From Chlorobiota bacterium (GTDB lineage Bacteria > Bacteroidota > Ignavibacteria > OLB7), in contig JAGWAZ010000001.1 of the NCBI GenBank assembly GCA_021296135.1, positions 1,908 through 65,907 of the forward strand: a DNA stretch of 64,000 nucleotides, given 5' to 3'. The translations under genes were made by a program, and so were the position numbers. Shown piece after piece: positions 5,797-59,770 of this stretch. The notes below the pieces were generated by a model. The model saw only the letters and a program-made list of their open reading frames with translations, was not told the origin of the DNA and made no database searches. Position 1 is the stretch's first letter. Each line of letters begins with the position of its first letter.

Positions 5797-5877
5797 TATC
5801 AGCTTTCAGCTTTGACTCTCGACCGCTTGACTCTTAGACTCACGACTCACGACGCTTCGACCCTCGACTCCTACAGC
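5797..5877. repeat. CGACTC-rich dispersed repeat, copy 1
   Basis: Sequence cagctttgactctcgaccgcttgactcttagactcacgactcacgacgcttcgaccctcgactcc. It shares CCCTCGACTC/GACTCTT cores with the copies at 13566, 23960 and 59238. Confidence 0.6.
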
Positions 5878-6066
5878 ATCGCACGTACGAAGTACAGCCG
5901 AGACATTGTGTGGATCGTGGACATCTTCGAGGAGAAGATGGAGATCAAACTGGTGTTGTTCCAGAACGCGCCGCAATCGCTCTACGCGACGGACAGTACG
6001 GTTTGTCTTCGCATCAATCGCAACCGATTCATCGAAGCCGAGCCGGTCGTTAGGCTTCTTCACCAC
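5806..6066 (-). pseudogene. trmH: Truncated N-terminal stub of a SpoU/TrmH-family tRNA/rRNA 2'-O-methyltransferase. Only ~60 conserved residues remain; the stub ends inside the repeat.
   Basis: ...RLRRVLEQHQFDLHLLLEDVHDPHNVSAVLRTCDAVGVEG matches the TrmH N-terminal motif (RQPDL..VHKPHNVSAIIRTADAVGV). The ORF stops after 86 aa, whereas full-length TrmH is ~220 aa. The remaining sequence is repeat followed by an opposing gene. Confidence 0.55.
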
Positions 6067-9986: not shown

Positions 9987-10147
9987 AACGTTTGATAATG
10001 ATTATATCTAATAAGAAAACTTCGGAATAATAATCAAATCGGCATCAGGAAAGAAGAGGAGAACGAAAAAGAGCGCAGTACACAAAGATTCAGCATTAAC
10101 CTGAAAGCCCACTACTTTCTTACCTTACACTTTTACCTTTCTACCTT

Positions 10148-11395
10148 TTAATTTCTAACTTTCTCTGCCACCATTGAGATCCCCGTTTTGTCTGGCAACA
10201 AATACCTTTGCTGATACTCAATAGCCCCTTGCTGCAAAAAAGCTCCCTCGAACTGACCTCCATCTAAGTACTGTTTCTCTACCTGTCGAATCGCTCTATT
10301 GGAACTGAGCGAAGGGGCGGCACGATAGCATTGACATGTCCCTTGAATCAACATGCTGTCATTCATAACCACACCCTCTGCCAGCAGAACAGGCAACAGT
10401 GCATTGATAATGATATCGCTTGCTCGGGATGTTCCGATCAACGATTTTGAGCCAAAGCGAACAAGAAAAAGACCTCTGATCTCTTTGTACGGGCAATTTG
10501 ATGCGATTAACCGTGCGGCGTTTGTAAGTAGATCGTCGTTGTAAAGATCATAGACCAACTTTCCGCCAGCCCATATTCGTCGCTCCGGAGTGTTTGCAGG
10601 CCGCACTCTAAAATTCCACTCTGGGTCGACCGGATGGTCAGCTTCGGAGGGCAATATACTTCGCAAACGCGACTCGGATACGAATCTGGAAGCGACCGCC
10701 GTCAGGCGTTCAACCGGCAGACCGGATTGCGAAAAAAGATGAGAAAGGATCTCGTCAAACGTTGCCCCGATCAGTCTGTGACGGCCTGCAAAAAGCCTCT
10801 CGGCCACGCGTTTCATTGGTCCACGATTTGCGCTGAATCCAAGAGCATCGAATAGCCGGTACAGGAATTCGCGTTCTATTTGTAAGTCGTTGGTCAAACG
10901 CGGCTCTCTGCGGATAGCCTCGATTGCCCGGCACAGAAGTCGGCTCCAGGCCAACTCAACAAGGGGTTGTAGTGATAACTTCTTCTCCCCAAAGCTGAAA
11001 TCACTCGTCTCTTCTTTCTTCTCGTTTGAATCACGCCTGAGTACAATCGTTGGAATATCTAACCGAAGTCGTGCCTCATCAGGTGCCTGGGCCAATACGT
11101 GCAGAATAACATTGGAATATACGGGGTCTTCATGATGTTTGTGTGTGAACCAGTCCGATTCCCTCATGTGCATTTCAACCGGTCCGACAAACATGTTGCC
11201 GTCGATAAGAAGGATCCCGTTGAGGAAGTCGGGACCATCGGATTTGTTCCTCACACCGGGTGATAACAGACTAATTCTCTCTCCAGTAAGAGCATGAAAT
11301 GTGGTTCCGGGAACCGGAAGTTTCTGCCAGATAGTAAGCAGGTCATCTTCACAACCGATGGTGCGACCACAATCGATGGGTCCGGATGATTTCAT
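10148..11395 (-). CDS. DUF2851-family protein
   Basis: N-terminus ...LSPGVRNKSDGPDFLNGILLIDGNMFVGPVEMHMRESDWFTHKHHEDPVYSNVILHV is characteristic of Bacteroidota DUF2851. Confidence 0.55.
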   Translation of the reverse strand: MKSSGPIDCGRTIGCEDDLLTIWQKLPVPGTTFHALTGERISLLSPGVRNKSDGPDFLNGILLIDGNMFVGPVEMHMRESDWFTHKHHEDPVYSNVILHVLAQAPDEARLRLDIPTIVLRRDSNEKKEETSDFSFGEKKLSLQPLVELAWSRLLCRAIEAIRREPRLTNDLQIEREFLYRLFDALGFSANRGPMKRVAERLFAGRHRLIGATFDEILSHLFSQSGLPVERLTAVASRFVSESRLRSILPSEADHPVDPEWNFRVRPANTPERRIWAGGKLVYDLYNDDLLTNAARLIASNCPYKEIRGLFLVRFGSKSLIGTSRASDIIINALLPVLLAEGVVMNDSMLIQGTCQCYRAAPSLSSNRAIRQVEKQYLDGGQFEGAFLQQGAIEYQQRYLLPDKTGISMVAEKVRN

Positions 11396-12416: not shown

Positions 12417-12720
12417 TTACACCCTTATGTTACGACCGATTGATCTCTGGAATGTATGAAACATCCCGAAGAAAATAATGATCCGATACTCTTTGCATAC
12501 CTCTGCGCCGTAACGAACGATTTCATTGACCATGTTCTGAAGGTAGCTCCGAATCTGTTCGTTCTGATAGATCGGGTACTCTTTGGGATTGTTTCGAATT
12601 TCCGCGTCAATATCTGCGCCAAGCTGAGCATCCTGTTATACTGTGAACAGATTTGCTCCGCACGCCATACCAATGACTGCAATGCAAAGGTAGACTGAAT
12701 TGAGAATGTGATTTCTCATA
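12417..12720 (-). pseudogene. Degraded secreted-protein remnant. A signal-peptide-like ORF (MRNHILNSVYLCIAVIGMACGANLFTV) is followed by an in-frame TAA and a further 70 codons, ending 15 nt upstream of pyrF.
   Basis: One reading frame reads MRNHILNSVYLCIAVIGMACGANLFTV*QDAQLGADIDAEIRNNPKEYPIYQNEQIRSYLQNMVNEIVRYGAEV.... There is weak resemblance to the N-terminus of M48/BepA-like peptidases but no HExxH. At ~100 aa it is too short for an intact member. Confidence 0.3.
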
Positions 12721-12800
12721 GTTTTTGTGGTTGGTTGCCGTAGGTACTTGGCCCGAATGGTACGCAAGAGAGCGTAAGTGAACAAGAAAAAGTCACGTTA

Positions 12801-13562
12801 TCAGTACAAAGGTTGAAAGGCCGAGTTCTCATAATCGACATGGATCAGCGATAATCCCGTTGTCGGAGCCGCAACGCTTTGTCGCGACCTATCCTTTGAT
12901 TTCAATATTTCAGGCACTTCCTCTGCCCCACGAGCTCCCCTACCCACATCATACTGAACTCCTACCAGCAACCGCACCATTCCATAGAGAAACCTGTTTG
13001 CAGTAATGTGGAAGTCAAGGTGGATCCCACCATCATGCCATTGAGCGGAATAGACCTCACAAACTGCGTCCGGAGTGTCGGGATTGTGCTTGGAGAGGGC
13101 TGTATAATCATGCGTTCCCCTGAAGTACAAAGCGACATCGTTCATTGTGTTTACGTCGAGTTCAAAAGGGAGATACCAGGCATAGCGTGCTAAGAAAGGA
13201 TCCGGCTTTCTGATGATTCGGTAGCGGTAACTCCGCCTGCGGGCTGAATAGCGAGCATGGAATTCATCATCGACCGTTGAGAGGTTGGCTATTACGAGGT
13301 CGGAAGGAGACATACGCTGGAGGGCCTTGAGCAACTGGTCGTCGTCATAGCGTGTGCCCAGGTCTGCATGAGCAACCTGACCGTAAGCGTGTACGCCTGA
13401 GTCTGTCCTGCCCGCTCCCACTATCGTGATAGATCTATCGCCGCAGAGCCTTGATAACATTGTCTCAATGACCTCTTGCACAGTCCGGCCGCTTCCCTGT
13501 CGCTGCCAGCCAAGGAAATCAGTTCCGTCATACATGATCTGCATTGCAACTCTGCGCATCAT
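12801..13562 (-). CDS. truA: tRNA pseudouridine(38-40) synthase
   Basis: IMYDGTDFLGWQRQ and GAGRTDSGVHA motifs. The N-terminus is intact. Confidence 0.9.
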   Translation of the reverse strand: MMRRVAMQIMYDGTDFLGWQRQGSGRTVQEVIETMLSRLCGDRSITIVGAGRTDSGVHAYGQVAHADLGTRYDDDQLLKALQRMSPSDLVIANLSTVDDEFHARYSARRRSYRYRIIRKPDPFLARYAWYLPFELDVNTMNDVALYFRGTHDYTALSKHNPDTPDAVCEVYSAQWHDGGIHLDFHITANRFLYGMVRLLVGVQYDVGRGARGAEEVPEILKSKDRSRQSVAAPTTGLSLIHVDYENSAFQPLY

Positions 13563-13565
13563 AAC

Positions 13566-13632
13566 GTCAGCTCTTTGACCCCCGACTCTTCAACCCTCGA
13601 CTCTTTGACCCCCGACTCTTCGACTTCAACCC
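13566..13632. repeat. CGACTC-rich dispersed repeat, copy 2. It is internally a ~31-bp direct repeat, placed immediately upstream of the truA start.
   Basis: Sequence tcagctctttgacccccgactcttcaaccctcgactctttgacccccgactcttcgacttcaaccc. Confidence 0.6.
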
Positions 13633-13633
13633 A

Positions 13634-13666
13634 CAAAAAAACGCAGTCTACAGAGGAGACTGCGCC
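13634..13666 (-). terminator. Rho-independent terminator of rpmF
   Basis: Minus strand reads CGCAGTCTcctctgtAGACTGCG (8-bp perfect stem, 7-nt loop) followed by TTTTTTTG, 25 nt after the rpmF stop. Confidence 0.7.
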
Positions 13667-13690
13667 ATTAAATAATCTGCTTTTGACATG

Positions 13691-13876
13691 CTATGTCGAG
13701 ATTGTCTTGGTGAGAATAACTCGACCGTTGTAGTAACCACAGCTTCGACAAGCGGTGTGGTGCCTCTTGGTCTCACCACAATTCGGACACTTACCAATCG
13801 CCGGTTCCGACAATTTATAGTGAGTTCTCCTTTTATCTCTTCTTGACTTCGAAATTTTTCGTTTGGGATGTGCCAT
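13691..13876 (-). CDS. rpmF: 50S ribosomal protein L32
   Basis: MAHPKRKISKSRRDKRRTHYKL...CPNCGE...CRSCGYY, with the zinc-ribbon L32 pattern. Confidence 0.9.
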   Translation of the reverse strand: MAHPKRKISKSRRDKRRTHYKLSEPAIGKCPNCGETKRHHTACRSCGYYNGRVILTKTIST

Positions 13877-22039: not shown

Positions 22040-22109
22040 CTTGGTAAGGGTATCGTATCAATCGTTCGCTTATCATTCATGCAGGCAAGATGTCCGCGCT
22101 CTGCATTTC

Positions 22110-22802
22110 TCATCCCTCATTCCTCATCCCTTCAATCTCCTCCCATCCATCCAGTCGTTCACGAGGAGGCAATGCTTGCAAGAGATTGACAATCAACTCA
22201 GTATTCGTTTGCAATTCTTCAAGATTCCCGTTGTTTTTGATGACAACGTCAGCACGCCTTACTTTTTCTTCAGCAGGGATTTGCATCGCGTCCCGCTTAC
22301 GAATCTCTTCTACATCAACTCCGTCTCGCTCGGCAGCCCGCCTGAAGCGGAGATCAACGTCTGCATCAACAACAACGATATAATCGAACCGTTCCTCGCC
22401 CCCTGACTCATAAATCAGGGCTGCTTCACAAACAACAATCGAGGCCCCGTTGTCAATTACTTCTTTCGCTCTGATCCCTTGCTCGGCAATTGTTCGCGGG
22501 TGAACAATTTCGCTCAGCTTCTGAAGGCGTTCACGATCATTGAAGACCAATTCAGCAAGACGTTTACGATCGAGCCTCCCATCGGAGTAAACACTCTTGC
22601 CAAACTCACGGAGAATTGCATCCTTCATCGAAGGATCATTCTGCATAAGCTCTTTGGCAATAGCATCCGCACTCAAGACCGGGATGCCCGCTTTCCGAAA
22701 CAGATCGGCCACTTGTGACTTTCCGGCACCAATTGATCCGGTAAGGCCAATCAGCAGATACTCTCCATCCCCCTGATTCTTTTGCATACTCATCGGACGC
22801 AA
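22110..22802 (-). CDS. coaE: Dephospho-CoA kinase
   Basis: LIGLTGSIGAGKSQV P-loop with CoaE-like length. Confidence 0.8.
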   Translation of the reverse strand: MRPMSMQKNQGDGEYLLIGLTGSIGAGKSQVADLFRKAGIPVLSADAIAKELMQNDPSMKDAILREFGKSVYSDGRLDRKRLAELVFNDRERLQKLSEIVHPRTIAEQGIRAKEVIDNGASIVVCEAALIYESGGEERFDYIVVVDADVDLRFRRAAERDGVDVEEIRKRDAMQIPAEEKVRRADVVIKNNGNLEELQTNTELIVNLLQALPPRERLDGWEEIEGMRNEG

Positions 22803-23759: not shown

Positions 23760-23975
23760 TTATCGTGCAATAGTCACCTGTACCTGTACTGATTCTGATC
23801 TGTCTCCGAGGCTCACTTGAACCAGATAGGCGCCGGATTCCGTAGCCCGCCCAACGAACCGTCCGTGGTCAACGAGCACCTCGGTTGAAAGAACCTCCTG
23901 TCCGAGAACATCGGTGATCTGAAGGCTCACCTCCTCTCCCGCTCTGTCCGTCCCCCGATGCCGGATCCGGCACAA
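23760..23975 (-). pseudogene. Orphan T9SS C-terminal sorting domain: a ~70-aa remnant with no upstream cargo domain
   Basis: ...VSLQITDVLGQEVLSTEVLVDHGRFVGRATESGAYLVQVSLGDRSESVQVQVTI matches the Por_Secre_tail pattern (I.D..G..V...SG.Y.V.V...K). Only ~40 bp lie between it and the next gene, and a CGACTC-type repeat fragment sits directly upstream. Confidence 0.5.
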
Positions 23976-24005
23976 CTTTCACTCTTAGACTCCATGACTC
24001 TCCAC
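23960..24005. repeat. CGACTC-family repeat fragment, copy 4
   Basis: Sequence cacaactttcactcttagactccatgactctccacc. It shares the gactcttagactc core with copy 1. Confidence 0.4.
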
Positions 24006-24015
24006 CCAAATCAAC

Positions 24016-48392: not shown

Positions 48393-48626
48393 TTATGTAA
48401 CGAAAACCAGAAGAACGCAGATAACCAACGCAAAGAGGGCAATACCCTCGATAAGAGCGGCAGCGATAATCATTGTTGTACGGATATCACCAATAGCCTC
48501 CGGTTGACGTCCCTGCGCTTCAAGAGCAGCAGCAGCAAGACGGCCGATACCAAGACCCGGGCCAAAGACTGTGAGTGCTGCGCCAAGACCCGCAGCGAGA
48601 TAGGCCAATCCTTTTACTTCCATCAA
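48393..48626 (-). CDS. atpE: ATP synthase Fo subunit c
   Basis: 77-aa hairpin proteolipid with GLGAAL...GRQPE...IIAAALIEGIALFALV. Confidence 0.85.
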   Translation of the reverse strand: MMEVKGLAYLAAGLGAALTVFGPGLGIGRLAAAALEAQGRQPEAIGDIRTTMIIAAALIEGIALFALVICVLLVFVT

Positions 48627-48814
48627 AACCTCCGACAGATATGAAGATGTGTTCTGAAAATGACATCAATGTTAAAGACTTATAAAGTTACGGATGATCG
48701 TTCGTTTGCCGAACGGAGCATACTTTCAAAAAGGTTTCATTACGTGAACCATGACGAGCCAATTAAAGCCGATCTAATGGGCTGTTGCATGTTTCTCCTC
48801 CTCAATGGTATTTG

Positions 48815-49300
48815 AAATCACAAGCGGTATCATCCCAAACTTTGAACAAGATACGGATACGCCCGTTTTCAAGTTTATAGGCATACTGAAACTTCGCCGA
48901 ACGATATTTATGCTTTACTTTGGACCTTGGAGATTTAATGCGTCGGCCTTTCTTACCATTTTTCATCCAGTCAAAGAATCTTTAGTAAGCAAGGTGAATA
49001 CGGAATAATCACAGCATCAAGGGTGTCGTGTGTATCCATGCCCAGTACTTCTTTGTGTGTTTGAGCAATTTAGTAAGGTGAGGCTTAAGGCGATACCTGC
49101 CCGCATATTTTCCGAATATGCGATAATACCGCTTCTCCAAACGCAGAAAGTGGTTGTGGACATCCGCAAGTTCGTCGAGCATATTTGCCCAAACGTTTGT
49201 TCTTGGGATGACTGCGTATCTGATGTTTGTCGGTTCGCATCGTATACTCCAGCACCGTTCCTGATACCACTCGATTGGGCAGAACGCCCTGGGGCCTTTA
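48815..49300 (-). pseudogene. Degraded ORF of ~160 codons in a single frame, interrupted by two in-frame stops. It may be a remnant of a mobile element or intron-associated gene. Identity unknown.
   Basis: The minus-strand frame reads ...PIEWYQERCWSIRCEPTNIRYAVIPRTNVWANMLDELADVHNHFLRLEKRYYRIFGKYAGRYRLKPHLTKLLKHTKKYWAWIHTTPLML*LFRIHLAY*RFFDWMKNGKKGRRIKSPRSKVKHKYRSAKFQYAYKLENGRIRILFKVWDDTACDFKYH*. It is basic and W/Y/R/K-rich, as nucleic-acid-binding mobile-element proteins are. No intact ORF remains. Confidence 0.3.
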
Positions 49301-49369
49301 AACGGAAGAACCCGTCATCAGTGAGTGGCTGATGACGAGGCTCCCGTTATGTTCATCCAACACTGTGGA

Positions 49370-50515: not shown

Positions 50516-50693
50516 GTTGTATCTCCTTTGTTATTATAATGAAGGGTCAGGCAGTGCCCATCAAGAAAAACATCACCGCCCTCAACCAGATTCCGTTATC
50601 GTCAGAAAAAACGAGTTTTTGTTATGAAGCCACTTAATATACTCCAAAAATCGCTTTGAAGCCAAGTATTCCAACTTAATCGGCGTGAAAAAC

Positions 50694-51767
50694 TTAACCG
50701 TAGTCATGGGAGTGCATACCCATGCTTGCAAAGACTGCAACGAGAATCGTGAAAATGTAAGCCTGAATAAAGGCTATAAGTATTTCAAGCAGGTTAATGA
50801 AGAGCGAAAACGCGACGGAGACCGGGGCAAATTCAAGGCCGAGAACAAAAATCAACCCGATCAATGAAAGAAGAACAACGTGCCCACCCGTCATGTTCGC
50901 AAAGAGTCGAACGCAAAGAGCAAAAGGTTTTGCAAAAAGACCCAGGATTTCGACCGGAACCATAATCAGCCACATAGCTATAGGTGTTCCTCCAGTCAAG
51001 TGTTTGAACCAAGCCATTATTCCAGCATCCCGAATCGCCGCATATTGGATGACAAAGAAGGCGACAATTGCAAGACCAGCAGTAACACTCAAACTTCCTG
51101 TTGCAGAGTGCCCTCCGGGAATCAGTCCGAGAAGGTTCATCACGAGGATAAACGTAAAGAAGGTGAACAGGATCGGAGTAAGCGACCTTCCGACTTTTCC
51201 ACTTCCCACGTTCGGAATCACCAGATTGTCTCTGAGATATTCTATCAACCCCTCCATTGCGTTGAAGAACCCTTTATGAGCACGACCTCCCAGCTTTTTA
51301 GCTTTGCGTCCCATCGGAATAAAGATGGCAAGCAGAACCAGCATTGCGAGCCACTGAAATGCAACGAGACTGGTGATCGATATATCGAGCGCTGGAGTTT
51401 GATGATCTGAGACGCGCACAATCGTCTTGTGATCTTCCCTTTCTCTATTCGTCCAGTCCTTCTTGACTTCTTCTGGCAAATGATACTTCAGAATATACTC
51501 CCCCTCTTGTTCCATTGCATCCACGTTCGCATAGAAATGGAATCCATCATCAATGAGGATAACCGGCAAATCGACAATGTGAAGAGGGCCGACCTCGATC
51601 TCGCGGTGATCCCCAAGAGTACCGATCAGTGCCTGAAACGGCCCCTCTTCCTTACCATGTCCCTCATCTGAATGCTGATCAGTATTGTGTCCAGGCTCAT
51701 TCTCTGCCAGAAGCTCATCAGCCTGGGCAATCAGTTCATGGTTGACGTCAAGTTTCGGATCGTTCAT
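50694..51767 (-). CDS. atpB: ATP synthase Fo subunit a with a ~130-aa hydrophilic N-terminal extension
   Basis: C-terminal half carries the a-subunit helices (...LCVRLFANMTGGHVVL... conserved Arg). The N-terminal acidic extension is common in Bacteroidota/Chlorobi atpB. Confidence 0.85.
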   Translation of the reverse strand: MNDPKLDVNHELIAQADELLAENEPGHNTDQHSDEGHGKEEGPFQALIGTLGDHREIEVGPLHIVDLPVILIDDGFHFYANVDAMEQEGEYILKYHLPEEVKKDWTNREREDHKTIVRVSDHQTPALDISITSLVAFQWLAMLVLLAIFIPMGRKAKKLGGRAHKGFFNAMEGLIEYLRDNLVIPNVGSGKVGRSLTPILFTFFTFILVMNLLGLIPGGHSATGSLSVTAGLAIVAFFVIQYAAIRDAGIMAWFKHLTGGTPIAMWLIMVPVEILGLFAKPFALCVRLFANMTGGHVVLLSLIGLIFVLGLEFAPVSVAFSLFINLLEILIAFIQAYIFTILVAVFASMGMHSHDYG

Positions 51768-51871: not shown

Positions 51872-51927
51872 ACTTTGCACTTCTAACTTCCTACTTCCAA
51901 CTTCTAACTTCCTACTTCTAACTTCCA
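51872..51927. repeat. Heptamer tandem repeat (ACTTCNA/ACTTCCT) x7-8. On the atp coding strand it reads GGAAGTAGAAGTTAGAAGTTGGAAGTAGGAAGTTAGAAGT.
   Basis: Plus strand reads acttcta acttcct acttcca acttcta acttcct acttcta acttcca. It lies ~110 nt upstream of the atpB start and overlaps the last codons of the atpI-like gene. Confidence 0.7.
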
Positions 51928-52295
51928 ACGTGTTTGGACATGACCTTGACAAGAAAGACAATTTCCTGAATCAGAAAGACGAAATAGAATCCCAACAGGA
52001 AGAAGGTCAATGTCTGCGGATCAAATCCCTCGGTCAATAAATAGGCAAAGACCAGCAGCATTATCAACACCCGTGCTCCCATCCCCCCGAAGTATGCAGC
52101 CATGAAGACGAAGTTCTCTTTATCTATCGACCACTCAATAATCCACAACCCGACAACAGCATTGATAAAGGCCATAGCGCCGGCAGCATATATGGCGCTT
52201 CGAGTATCATCGAACCAAGCAATAACCGGGTACGCAAGTAAGGCTGCCAGAATACCGGCCAGTATCAGAACCGGTTTCGGGAAACGGAATCTCAT
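51918..52295 (-). CDS. atpI: ATP synthase protein I-like small membrane protein
   Basis: 125-aa, 4-TM hydrophobic protein immediately upstream of atpB. Confidence 0.45.
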   Translation of the reverse strand: MRFRFPKPVLILAGILAALLAYPVIAWFDDTRSAIYAAGAMAFINAVVGLWIIEWSIDKENFVFMAAYFGGMGARVLIMLLVFAYLLTEGFDPQTLTFFLLGFYFVFLIQEIVFLVKVMSKHVGS

Positions 52296-52597: not shown

Positions 52598-52901
52598 AGC
52601 TCACCGTGAACGTTGTGAACTCATGACTCCTGACTCCTCGTATCCTGAAAGGGACAAAACTACGGAAGGGAGACTCTTCATCGAACCCTTTTCTCCCAAC
52701 ACTTTGTATCCTGAGCTGAAAACGAGGGTAAAAGTTGAAAGCGTTACTGAGAGCAATGTTTCCTCTTCTTTACATGTAATCCCTTTCACAGCTGTGGTAA
52801 CACTTGCAATTTACACTTTGTTTGTACCAACCTAAATAGCTATAATGTATTCTAATAGTACCAGCCTTAGTTATCCAACAGTTGCACAAAATCCACTGCT
52901 C

Positions 52902-59074: not shown

Positions 59075-59770
59075 TTAGAAGTAACGCTCAGTTATCATCC
59101 CGGCAGTAATTTTTCCAGAAAGGATAACCAGCGGGATCCCACCTCCAGGATGAACACTCCCTCCAACCATGTAGAAGTTCTCTAACTCCTTACGATGGTT
59201 TCCCTGACGGAAGAAAGCCGAGAGCATAGAACTTTCAGCCATCAGCTTTCGATCCCCGACTCTTAACCCTCGACTCATACTTTCAACTCTCAGTTATGAG
59301 CTTTCAGCTCTCGATCCCCGACTCTCGACCCTCGACTCATGTTTGACGAAGCCCCATAGATTGCTCCGTCGACGGCATGATAACGCTCTTGAAGTTCATA
59401 AAATGTTATCAACGATTGCGACAGGATGCAAGGTTGAACTCCAAACTGTGCGAGACGATCCCAGACTAACCTTGCCGATTCGCTTTTGTACTCTTCATTC
59501 TCGAAAAGATCGGCTCGCGATGGAGCATTCACCAGAAGGTACCAGTTCTTTTCCGGCTCCCTTGCAAGAGATTCATCGCTGTGCGATGAGATCGAACGAT
59601 AGATTATCATCTCTTGAGGTAAACCCGAGCTTACCGAGCATGGGCAAAAGCTTGGCATTGCGAAATGAGAATACCTGATGTACTCCCCGGAACGGACTGA
59701 ATAGGAAACAAAACACCCATCCCCTAACTTTCTACTTCCTATATTCTATTCCGTCAAACTCACTTTATCG
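59075..59770 (-). pseudogene. Remnant of a phytoene desaturase (CrtI)-family FAD oxidoreductase. Only the C-terminal ~200 aa survive. It carries a frameshift and is interrupted by a tandem CGACTC-family repeat. The N-terminal ~300 aa are absent.
   Basis: Segments ...NWYLLVNAPS...LITFYELQERYHAVDGAIYGASSNM | [repeat] | ...SSMLSAFFRQGNHRKELENFYMVGGSVHPGGGIPLVILSGKITAGMI align to the CrtI C-terminus (...YYVLAPVP...FRDQLNAYHGSAFSVEPVLTQSAWFRPHNRDKTITNLYLVGAGTHPGAGIPGVIGSAKATAGLM). The repeat replaces the region between them. oppB starts 100 bp beyond on the opposite strand. Confidence 0.55.
59238..59340. repeat. CGACTC-rich dispersed repeat, copy 3: two tandem ~59-bp units inside the crtI-like remnant
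   Basis: Sequence cagctttcgatccccgactcttaaccctcgactcatac ... cagctctcgatccccgactctcgaccctcgactcatg. Confidence 0.65.

What the first reader, a model, noticed from the sequence alone, without database searches (positions are those of the whole stretch)
13566..13632. Dispersed CGACTC-rich repeat family in a single orientation at four loci, three of them at truncated genes
Four loci (5797-5877, 13566-13632, 23960-24005, 59238-59340) share degenerate ~30-35-bp units built on CAGCTYTYGAYCCCCGACTCTTNAACCCTCGACTC. The units are often locally tandem and all lie in the same plus-strand orientation.

Three of the four copies sit exactly at the edge of, or inside, gene remnants:
- a trmH N-terminal stub;
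- a crtI-like pseudogene split by the repeat;
- an orphan T9SS C-terminal domain.

Only the truA-upstream copy has intact neighbours. This pattern suggests a non-autonomous mobile or recombinogenic element (MITE/REP-like) that has driven local deletions. The alternative is a preferred breakpoint sequence.
Basis: seen in the sequence. Interest (0 to 1): 0.6.

Follow-up and report, generated by a model that had tools for sequence, protein, structure and literature searches.

The report
Variable short tandem repeats, not a MITE
The "CGACTC" repeats are short, degenerate tandem-repeat tracts built from 15-base units; one changes unit number between strains of a sponge-associated bacterium, and they sit in non-coding and decaying DNA, so they are ordinary slippage-type repeats, not a mobile element.

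Summary
Three of the four loci are related beyond chance: 5799-5871, 13568-13634 and 59231-59340. The fourth (23960-24005) is only the best background-level match.

The repeat is a head-to-tail array of 15-nt units, GAGTCGRGGGTYRAA on the minus strand, each made of a 7-mer and an 8-mer of the form GRGTYRA(A). It has no terminal inverted repeats, no hairpin, no clear target duplication and no Rfam match.

The flagged truA-upstream copy fills the whole gap between the rpmF terminator and the truA ATG. It is a VNTR: eleven assemblies of the same population carry 72-, 87- or 102-nt versions that differ by whole units.

The crtI copy is a fixed 110-nt insertion (48 + 62 nt) in a gene that is already truncated. 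The spoU copy abuts a deletion junction inside a 6-nt match (GAGTCG) between the gene and the repeat unit. Relatives have intact spoU followed by a (GAGTTGA)n array in the same intergenic gap.

Related tracts lie just outside the window, one of them in the opposite orientation, and a fourth gene remnant (M48) has no repeat.

Best reading: slippage-prone minisatellite-like tracts that give microhomology for rearrangements in an eroding symbiont genome. They resemble MIRU-VNTR loci and are not MITE/REP elements. Modest interest.

The parts
13568..13634 (-). Flagged locus: a tandem array. On the + strand it reads tail CAGCTCTTTGA (13568-13578); three 15-nt units at 13579-13593, 13594-13608 and 13609-13623; and a partial unit at 13624-13634. 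On the minus (gene-sense) strand the units read GAGTCGGGGGTCAAA / GAGTCGAGGGTTGAA. The array is a VNTR.
   Evidence: TRF reports period 15, 2.9 copies. The terminator-to-ATG spacer is 72, 87 or 102 nt in 11 other assemblies (7, 1 and 3 assemblies; the window itself has 72). The alleles differ by whole 15-nt units plus G/A changes inside units.
13635..13666 (-). Intrinsic terminator of rpmF (10-bp stem plus T7). The array starts directly after its T-run.
   Evidence: The same terminator is conserved in relatives.
12801..13562 (-). truA, intact. Its ATG lies 5 nt after the array. An open frame that runs through the array ends in a TGA overlapping this ATG (ATGA).
   Evidence: Pfam PseudoU_synth_1 at 4e-35; frame analysis.
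59231..59278 (-). Unit A of the insertion in the crtI-like remnant: 48 nt, ACTTTCAGCC...CCCTCGACTCAT on the + strand. It equals 16 codons and is open in the reading frame of the crtI piece downstream of it.
   Evidence: The protein alignment with homologs places the insert between SSN and SML-SAFF.
59279..59340 (-). Unit B of the same insertion: 62 nt, ACTTTCAACT...CCCTCGACTCAT. It breaks the frame and brings in stop codons. Two SNPs vary among strains; there is no length variation.
   Evidence: (family D1).
59075..59700 (-). crtI-like (phytoene desaturase family) remnant: only about the last 175 residues, split by the 110-nt insertion. The N-terminal part of the gene is absent.
   Evidence: The best intact homologs are only 43% identical or less.
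5799..5871 (-). Degenerate member of the family. On the + strand: (TCAGCTT)x2, then GACTCTCGACC.., (GACTCAC)x2, then ..TTCGACCCTCGACTCC. It fills the space between the spoU stub and the end of the convergent ABC-ATPase gene.
   Evidence: (family D3). Length is invariant, with one SNP, among 6 assemblies.
5865..5870 (-). Deletion junction. GAGTCG is at once native spoU sequence (codons Gly-Val-G..) and the start of the repeat unit.
   Evidence: Codon alignment with spoU of three relatives.
5866..6066 (-). spoU/trmH N-terminal stub (about 67 of 213 residues). The called ORF (5806-6066) runs on through the repeat.
   Evidence: Pfam SpoU_methylase positions 2-38 of 142; synteny with relatives; alignment.
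23960..24005 (.). Doubtful fourth locus. It shares CTCTTAGACTC with 5799-5871 and lies exactly between the aminotransferase stop (24016) and the start of a T9SS C-terminal-domain remnant (23760-23975, minus strand). It is not statistically separable from background.
   Evidence: (E=26).
12425..12760 (-). Context: an M48 peptidase remnant (first 69 residues, with an in-frame stop) that has no CGACTC repeat at its junction.
   Evidence: Relatives have a 266-313 aa M48 gene between truA and pyrF.

Best explanation
The loci are minisatellite-like tandem-repeat tracts, not a transposable element.

**Anatomy.** The basic building block is a purine-rich heptamer or octamer, GRGTYRA(A). Two of these form a 15-nt unit, GAGTCGRGGGTYRAA, read on the minus strand.

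**Shown.**
- The tracts gain and lose whole units: the truA-upstream tract has three length alleles in one bacterial population.
- They pick up point changes inside units.

**Inferred.**
- The unit gains and losses occur by slipped-strand mispairing.
- The tracts persist where DNA is unconstrained: intergenic gaps after terminators, between convergent genes, and inside dead genes.
- New copies arise by microhomology-primed template switching or ectopic recombination from an existing tract. An example is the 110-nt insertion in crtI, which follows a gene sequence that mimics a unit end.
- The tracts offer short direct repeats for microhomology-mediated deletion. An example is the loss of the 3' two-thirds of spoU between a native GAGTCG and a tract that already lay downstream, where relatives carry a (GAGTTGA)n array.

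**Host (inferred).** A Kapabacteria-type symbiont of the sponge Petrosia ficiformis. Its genome shows several gene remnants and many other hypervariable short-period arrays in this region.

**Function.** The tracts most likely have no dedicated function. At truA the tract simply forms a length-variable leader or spacer.
For: Tandem architecture and unit size.

Copy-number polymorphism at 13568-13634:
- spacer alleles of 72, 87 and 102 nt (7, 1 and 3 assemblies), always differing by whole 15-nt units;
- the flanks are 99.5-99.9% identical.

Other short-period arrays of the same genome also vary between strains:
- the heptamer array at 51879-51929 differs by 35 nt;
- the octamer arrays just right of the window differ.

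No transposon features: no TIRs, no stable fold, no Rfam family.

Low copy number of the strict core:
- only the two known loci were found in the one searchable metagenome that holds this organism;
- no copies in viral contigs.

Loose family in the surrounding 80 kb: 7 matches at 6 places against 0.19 expected, one of them on the other strand.

spoU locus:
- relatives have intact spoU plus a (TCTCAAC)x6 or x14 array in the same gap;
- the spoU junction lies within the shared GAGTCG.

crtI locus: a clean 110-nt addition with no residues lost, fixed in all six sequences compared (the window and five assemblies), with SNPs inside it.

Gene decay is independent of the repeat: the M48 remnant has none.
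Against: - The copies at 13568-13634 and 59231-59340 share about 35 nt at about 85% identity, including the non-periodic tail AGCTGA. They were therefore copied from one another and did not arise independently. The copying mechanism is inferred, not shown.
- The units at 59231-59340 have sharp, repeated ends (ACTTTCA...CGACTCAT), as a discrete element would.
- Two, possibly three, of the loci sit at rearrangement junctions. That is more than random placement in non-coding DNA would give (roughly p about 0.02, post hoc).
- Only about 80 kb of a 3.4-Mb genome could be examined, so copy number, end conservation and presence/absence polymorphism across the genome are unknown.
- A heptamer of the same form (GAGTTGA) forms arrays in a relative whose TruA is only 66-68% identical. 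That could point to a shared function or a binding protein instead of neutral slippage.
Confidence: 0.6

Rival explanations
1. A MIRU-like mobile minisatellite. A short, TIR-less unit inserts in one orientation at or next to ATG codons and then amplifies in tandem. It carries an open frame that is translationally coupled to the downstream gene, so insertion is tolerated.
For: - The loci are dispersed and each is locally tandem.
- The unit is 15 nt, so all three alleles keep the frame.
- An open frame runs through the whole truA-upstream tract and ends in a TGA overlapping the truA ATG (ATGA).
- Both crtI units begin with ATGA on the sense strand, and unit A (48 nt) is an in-frame, stop-free insertion.
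- A review describes MIRUs as apparently mobile and as inserting at start codons with a -4 overlap (PMC12548453).
Against: - The internal frame has no ATG or ribosome-binding site; the only candidate start is a TTG inside the terminator T-run.
- Two of three frames of the tract are open anyway, and ATGA has about a 1 in 4 chance, so the coupling signature is not significant.
- The copy at 5799-5871 and the tracts outside the window are not at start codons.
- No insertion-site polymorphism was seen among the assemblies.
Confidence: 0.15
2. A functional cis-element. The heptad arrays would be cooperative binding sites for a lineage-specific DNA- or RNA-binding protein (as 7-bp heptads are for ribbon-helix-helix repressors). 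Alternatively, they would be an orientation-dependent leader or terminator signal: G-rich and unstructured on the sense strand, C-rich and G-poor (like a Rho-utilisation site, rut) on the antisense strand.
For: - The same heptamer form (GRGTYRA) is used in the sponge symbiont and, as pure (GAGTTGA)n, in relatives with 66-68% identical TruA, at the same spoU-downstream gap.
- The tracts follow terminators or sit between convergent genes.
- The C-rich strand of 67-110 nt with a 14-15-nt period resembles what is known of rut sites (own knowledge).
Against: - Length and sequence vary freely between strains.
- One copy lies inside a dead gene and another at a deletion scar.
- Orientation relative to flanking genes is not consistent once the tracts outside the window are included.
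- More distant relatives have no such arrays at these positions.
- No promoter-like elements were found in the tract.
Confidence: 0.15
3. A classical MITE or REP-type non-autonomous element, mobilised in trans by a transposase or RAYT.
For: - It is a dispersed family with similar left and right ends at several loci.
- One copy is a clean insertion into a coding sequence.
- REP-like hairpins of a different sequence do exist in this genome just outside the window.
Against: - No TIRs and no hairpin.
- At most a 3-nt ambiguous duplication (CAT/ATG) at the crtI site.
- Variable length.
- VNTR behaviour.
- No transposase was seen among the gene calls or Pfam hits inspected in this region, though not every ORF was scanned.
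Confidence: 0.05
4. Chance low-complexity similarity with no common origin.
For: - Similar CCCCGACTCT-type tandem tracts occur in unrelated bacteria such as Zoogloea, Acidobacteriota and freshwater metagenomes.
- The fourth locus is at background level.
Against: - Profile E-values run from 1e-6 to 4e-9 between loci, and the third locus is detected independently at E=0.007.
- The degenerate pattern gives 7 matches against 0.19 expected.
- The loci share the non-periodic tail.
Confidence: 0.05

Closest known systems
MIRU-VNTR loci (mycobacterial interspersed repetitive units)
   Same: - Homologous short units are dispersed at several loci, each as head-to-tail copies.
- Unit number varies between strains.
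- They lie between co-directional genes, right at a start codon.
- They have no TIRs.
- The unit length keeps the reading frame.
- An open frame through the tract ends in ATGA at the downstream start (MIRU features from PMC12548453 and own knowledge).
   Different: - The unit here is 15 nt (composites of 30-62 nt), against 46-101 bp for MIRUs.
- Only a few degenerate loci were seen.
- The internal frame has no credible start codon.
- Copies also lie in a pseudogene and at a deletion scar.
- The phylum is different (a Kapabacteria/Bacteroidota-Chlorobi group relative).
STRR (short tandemly repeated repetitive) heptanucleotide sequences of heterocystous cyanobacteria (own knowledge)
   Same: - Heptamer-based tandem arrays in non-coding DNA.
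- A lineage-typical motif shared across genera.
- No known function.
   Different: - The motif differs: GRGTYRA against CCCCAGT and the like.
- Here 7-mers and 8-mers alternate to give a 15-nt unit.
- The tracts are short and degenerate, and abundance is unknown.
MITEs (Correia, RUP, Nezha and others) and REP/BIME elements
   Same: Small, non-coding, dispersed and mostly intergenic; one copy interrupts a gene.
   Different: They have no terminal inverted repeats, no palindromic hairpin, no clear target-site duplication and no fixed length, and they evolve by changes in unit number.
Rickettsia palindromic elements (RPEs; own knowledge)
   Same: A short repeat inserted inside a protein-coding sequence of a host-associated bacterium. 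The 48-nt unit A is in frame and free of stop codons.
   Different: RPEs are palindromic and 100-150 bp long. Here the second unit destroys the frame, and the gene was already truncated.

Membership tests
MITE | Terminal inverted repeats | tested here: not met
   The inverted-repeat search around all three loci found only the rpmF terminator and two chance 9-10-nt pairs.
MITE | Target-site duplication flanking the element | tested here: inconclusive
   Only the crtI site can be mapped. No residues are lost. At most a 3-nt CAT/ATG could be duplicated, and only if the original protein was one residue shorter than its homologs.
MITE | Many copies of near-constant length | tested here: not met
   Lengths are 48, 62, 67-97 (alleles) and about 73 nt. 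The strict core occurs at only two loci in the one metagenome that holds this organism. The whole genome was not searchable.
REP/BIME (RAYT-associated) | Imperfect palindrome that forms a stable hairpin | tested here: not met
   Fold z-scores range from -0.7 to +1.1 on both strands of all three loci.
REP/BIME (RAYT-associated) | A RAYT (tnpA_REP) gene in the genome | not testable with these tools
   Only about 80 kb of the 3.4-Mb genome could be fetched.
VNTR / minisatellite | Head-to-tail copies of a short unit | tested here: met
   TRF reports period 15 with 2.9 copies at 13578-13621, periods 14 and 7 at 59308-59338, and periods 7 and 22 at 5829-5870.
VNTR / minisatellite | Unit-number polymorphism among strains | tested here: met
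   At 13568-13634 the spacer is 72, 87 or 102 nt across 11 assemblies. This is not seen at the other two loci.
MIRU-like interspersed repeats | Homologous units at several dispersed loci | tested here: met
   Three loci lie in the window. Looser relatives lie at three more places within 80 kb.
MIRU-like interspersed repeats | Internal ORF whose ends overlap the stop and start codons of the flanking genes | tested here: inconclusive
   The open frame ends in ATGA at the truA start, but it has no credible start codon of its own. The feature is absent at the other loci.
MIRU-like interspersed repeats | Same orientation as the flanking genes | tested here: inconclusive
   All three loci in the window are G-rich on the sense strand of their neighbours. 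The two tracts at window-equivalent 64920 and 66581 are not.
STRR-type heptamer repeats | Tandem heptanucleotide unit | tested here: inconclusive
   A 7-nt sub-period is present (GACTCAC, CTCGACC and TCAGCTT; pure (TCTCAAC)n in relatives). The dominant unit here is 15 nt (7+8).
Known RNA families (Rfam 15) | A match at or above the family's gathering score | tested here: not met
   The window contains only one tRNA. The permissive scan of two loci gave only sub-threshold noise.

The most novel reading that the evidence does not exclude
The tracts are a mobile minisatellite: a TIR-less, hairpin-less unit that copies itself to new sites, preferentially next to ATG codons or unit-like microhomologies, by templated insertion. 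It then amplifies in tandem and actively remodels genes (in-frame insertion, frameshift, adjacent deletion) in a sponge-symbiont genome. That would be a MIRU-type system in a Bacteroidota/Chlorobi-group lineage, possibly with a heptad-binding protein partner conserved across Kapabacteria.
Probability: 0.15. Interest if true: 0.55.

Novelty: new member of a known kind. Interest (0 to 1): 0.3.

Why it matters
This is a worked example of how short tandem-repeat tracts take part in genome erosion in an uncultured sponge symbiont.
- One tract is a ready-made strain-typing marker: a 15-nt VNTR between rpmF and truA.
- Two tracts mark a deletion and an insertion whose junctions show microhomology.

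If the tracts prove to be numerous and discrete genome-wide, they would extend MIRU-like interspersed minisatellites to a new phylum. As it stands the finding is ordinary. It corrects a mobile-element call to a slippage-type repeat.

Tried and rejected
1. **Genome-collection scan with the core pattern.** The organism is not represented. The 15 hits are unrelated tracts, mostly a conserved Zoogloea intergenic hairpin, so no copy number could be obtained.
2. **Metagenome scan.** It returned only the same two loci from one sponge metagenome (LXNJ01), plus unrelated low-complexity tracts.
3. **Two viral-contig scans.** Nothing found.
4. **Protein search with the concatenated six-frame translations of the repeats, to catch spurious ORFs at other copies.** No hit at E of 10 or below. 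The approach lacks power for 15-25-residue matches.
5. **Fetching DNA left of the window through ORF 88-726.** The protein as I delimited it is not on record, so the look-up was wasted. The 569-aa gene then worked.
6. **Strict polypurine/polypyrimidine window scan.** Not informative, because the tracts are only about 70-75% pyrimidine on the + strand.
7. **G-quadruplex idea.** G-runs exist, but the loops are 11-17 nt or longer (sequence inspection). Dropped.
8. **Promoter inside the truA-upstream tract.** No sigma-70-like match in the tract, and by inspection no Bacteroidetes-type -33/-7 match.
9. **GANTC/GAGTC methylation or restriction-avoidance idea.** CGACTC is not depleted in the window (51 observed against 39 expected). 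Dropped.
10. **Closer relatives with an intact crtI.** None exist in the protein collection; the next best hit is 43% identical. An empty-site comparison at that locus was therefore impossible.

Full report
**1. The observation**

To ask whether they are related beyond low complexity, I built a small profile from the copies at 13568-13603 and 59244-59340 and searched the whole window on both strands.
- Apart from the input copies, the only hits below E=3 are at 5842-5870 (E=0.007), 13604-13624 and 5817-5849 (E=0.09).
- The fourth locus, 23992-24007, scores E=26, which is background.
- A local-alignment scan of every 66-nt window against the three good loci makes 23960-24005 the top non-family site, but only just: score 29 against 28, 27, 27 and 26.

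Three loci are therefore real relatives and the fourth is unproven.

- TRF gives period 15 at 13578-13621, periods 14 and 7 at 59308-59338, and periods 7 and 22 at 5829-5870.
- On the minus strand the unit reads GAGTCGRGGGTYRAA. That is a 7-mer plus an 8-mer of the common form GRGTYRA(A), closed by a tail RAGCTGA.

**2. Host and neighbourhood**

Exact-protein look-ups place the window in metagenomes labelled 'PetF' (JGI 3300002734), in LXNJ01 and in several ENA and Logan assemblies. One of these is a 3,403,529-bp contig, ena:ERZ18545484:ptg000715c.
- TruA homologs name the clade Candidatus Kapaibacterium / Ignavibacteriae / Chlorobi.
- A genome note on the sponge Petrosia ficiformis reports Kapabacteria MAGs (PMC12648040).
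- The host assignment is an inference from these labels.

All genes flanking the three loci are on the minus strand, and the + strand has negative GC skew throughout. The tracts are therefore G-rich on the local sense strand.

**3. The flagged locus, 13568-13634**

On the minus strand the order is:
- the rpmF stop;
- a clean intrinsic terminator (10-bp stem, T7);
- then immediately GTGGGTTGAAGTCGAA, (GAGTCGGGGGTCAAA)(GAGTCGAGGGTTGAA)(GAGTCGGGGGTCAAA), GAGCTGACGTT;
- and the truA ATG.

The tract fills the whole 72-nt gap. No promoter-like site lies in it.

Relatives with 62-70% identical TruA keep the rpmF terminator but have unrelated sequence of about 50-225 nt before truA. Some carry their own short purine-rich duplications.

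The decisive result is strain variation. Eleven other assemblies of this organism were compared, all 99.5-99.9% identical in the flanks. The terminator-to-ATG spacer in them is:
- 72 nt in seven assemblies, as in the window;
- 87 nt in the complete genome;
- 102 nt in three assemblies.

The differences are exactly one or two extra GAGTCRGGGGTCAAA units, plus G/A changes inside units. This is VNTR behaviour.

**4. The crtI locus, 59231-59340**

The minus strand encodes the last ~175 residues of a phytoene-desaturase-family protein in two frames. Aligned with homologs, the remnant reads ...GAIYGASSN | insert | SML-SAFFRQGN..., where homologs have SSN-S(K/R)x-SAF. No residue is missing, and the insert is 59231-59340, 110 nt long.

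The insert is two head-to-tail units with the same ends on the + strand, ACTTTCA...CCCTCGACTCAT.
- Unit A is 48 nt, which is 16 codons, open in the frame of the crtI piece downstream of it.
- Unit B is 62 nt, which shifts the frame and brings in stop codons.

All six sequences compared (the window and five assemblies) carry both units. Two SNPs lie in unit B.

The gene also lacks its N-terminal half, with no repeat involved. The nearest intact homolog is only 43% identical, so no empty site can be shown.

On the sense strand the gene sequence just before the insert, GTCAAAC, mimics a unit end (GTCAAAG at the truA locus, TTGAAAGT between units A and B). I read this as microhomology that could prime a template switch. 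This step is inferred.

**5. The spoU locus, 5799-5871**

Relatives show a conserved gene order: S8 peptidase, YceD, L32, TruA, M48 peptidase, PyrF, DUF2851, M32 peptidase, RelA/SpoT, SpoU (213-220 aa). In one relative (L056) and in a more distant one (L064) the convergent ABC ATPase follows SpoU.

In the window SpoU stops being SpoU after ...RTCDAVGV. The codon alignment shows homology ending at GGA GTC G. This is at once native Gly-Val-Gly coding sequence and the start of the repeat unit GAGTCGAGGGT.

Two close relatives carry a pure heptamer array, (TCTCAAC)x14.3 and x5.9, about 120 nt downstream of an intact spoU. In one of them (L056) this is the same intergenic gap, before the convergent ABC ATPase gene.

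The simplest history is a tract already present downstream, followed by a microhomology-mediated deletion that removed the 3' two-thirds of spoU. This is inferred. The tract's strand is opposite to that of the relatives' array, which the model does not explain. Length is invariant, with one SNP, among six assemblies.

**6. The surroundings weaken both 'single orientation' and 'repeat drives deletions'**

- The M48 peptidase gene between truA and pyrF is reduced to 69 residues with an in-frame stop, and no repeat lies at its junction.
- I extended the region to 80 kb with DNA from the complete genome. The degenerate pattern (GRGTYRR[A])x2 or more then gives 7 matches against 0.19 in shuffles:
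  - the five known units;
  - GGGTCGAGGGTTGAAGGGTCAA about 2.2 kb left of the window, on the opposite strand, directly after another terminator;
  - two copies of GGGTTGAAGGGTCGA to the right of the window, antisense to their flanking genes.
- These outside tracts adjoin long arrays of GGAGACAR/GGGGACAA octamers (period 8-16 nt), up to 412 nt long. The arrays right of the window differ in length between strains.
- A heptamer array upstream of atpB (51879-51929) differs by five units in one assembly.

The genome is therefore rich in slippage-prone short-period arrays. More distant relatives show none at these positions.

**7. Tests for other kinds of element**

- No inverted repeats at the ends.
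- No fold better than shuffles, as RNA, on either strand.
- No Rfam family.
- No copy in viral contigs.
- Public genome and metagenome scans with the strict core returned only the same two loci of this organism. The other hits were unrelated tracts of similar composition in other phyla, which shows that such sequences arise repeatedly.

**8. Interpretation**

The best-supported reading is a family of minisatellite-like tracts. They evolve by unit slippage (shown at one locus). They were copied between loci by an unknown route, most economically microhomology-primed template switching or ectopic recombination (inferred). They supply short direct repeats for deletions (inferred at spoU).

The closest known analogue is the MIRU-VNTR class. 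The analogy extends to an open frame that runs through the truA tract in all alleles and ends in a TGA overlapping the truA ATG (MIRU description in PMC12548453). That frame lacks a credible start, and the signature is not statistically compelling, so I do not file the tracts as MIRU-like elements in the strict sense.

A functional heptad-binding or polarity element cannot be excluded, because the GRGTYRA form recurs in a relative. The free variation in length, the copy inside a dead gene and the inconsistent orientation argue against it.

**9. Verdict**

The MITE/REP reading is not supported, and the 'breakpoint sequence' alternative is partly supported. This is a new member of a known kind of repeat, of modest interest. 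The main gap is that only about 80 kb of the 3.4-Mb genome could be examined.

Noticed in passing
L074 4458-4869 (about 1.7-2.1 kb left of window position 1); L066 11837-11950 and 13498-13703 (window-equivalent about 64955-65068 and 66616-66821): There are long arrays of GGAGACAR/GGGGACAA octamers (period 8-16 nt; up to 412 nt, about 26 copies of the 16-nt unit). Each unit contains a Shine-Dalgarno-like AAGGAG or AGGGGA. They follow a terminator or REP-like hairpins and differ in length between strains. They could act as a sponge for the ribosomal anti-SD sequence or for a CsrA-type protein, or they could be plain hypervariable minisatellites.
   Followed up: partly
L058 2990-5420 (right of the window; not present in the window): A REP-like palindrome, ATAGCCCAGCCGTTTACGGCTGGG (7-bp stem), occurs about five times downstream of T9SS-CTD genes. 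The window has no match to it at up to 3 mismatches.
   Followed up: partly
window 12425-12760 (-): A remnant of an M48 family peptidase: the first 69 residues, 65% identical to the 266-aa gene of relatives, with an in-frame stop; the rest is deleted. No repeat lies at the junction.
   Followed up: yes
window 51879-51929: A heptamer array, (RGAAGTW)n on the minus strand, lies about 112 nt upstream of the ATP synthase subunit a gene. One assembly (L059) lacks 35 nt, which is five units.
   Followed up: yes
window 50565-50701: Assembly L059 appears to carry a tandem duplication of about 120-137 nt in the intergenic region upstream of the periplasmic-binding-protein gene. This was seen as overlapping BLAST segments.
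   Followed up: no
window 10114-10164; 22104-22131; 52619-52638: Further short-period tracts that are pyrimidine-rich on the + strand lie in 5' intergenic regions of minus-strand genes (M32 peptidase, the miaB-like gene and the atp operon leader). All are purine-rich on the sense strand.
   Followed up: partly
L055 19024-19123; L056 11499-11539: Relatives carry perfect (TCTCAAC)x14.3 and x5.9 arrays downstream of spoU. In L056 the array begins at the stop codon of the convergent ABC ATPase gene.
   Followed up: yes
window 13563-13693 (-): The rpmF reading frame stays open for 43 codons beyond its TAG stop, through the terminator and the repeat. It ends in the TGA that overlaps the truA ATG. 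All three length alleles keep this frame.
   Followed up: partly
window 48627-49369: About 740 nt downstream of atpE (48393-48626, minus strand) has no convincing ORF and no Rfam match. It may be another gene remnant.
   Followed up: no
L066 14368-16743 (right of the window): The 933-aa FG-GAP/T9SS protein contains about 13.6 coding repeats of 168 nt. The neighbouring BNR/CTD genes and their downstream regions are tandem segmental duplicates with small fragment ORFs.
   Followed up: no
L003-L053 (unrelated organisms): CCCCGACTCT-type tandem or hairpin tracts occur in the intergenic DNA of unrelated organisms. Zoogloea has a conserved hairpin, GAGAGTCGAGA...CTCGACTCTCGAC. Acidobacteriota and several freshwater metagenome contigs carry similar tracts, some directly upstream of start codons.
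   Followed up: partly
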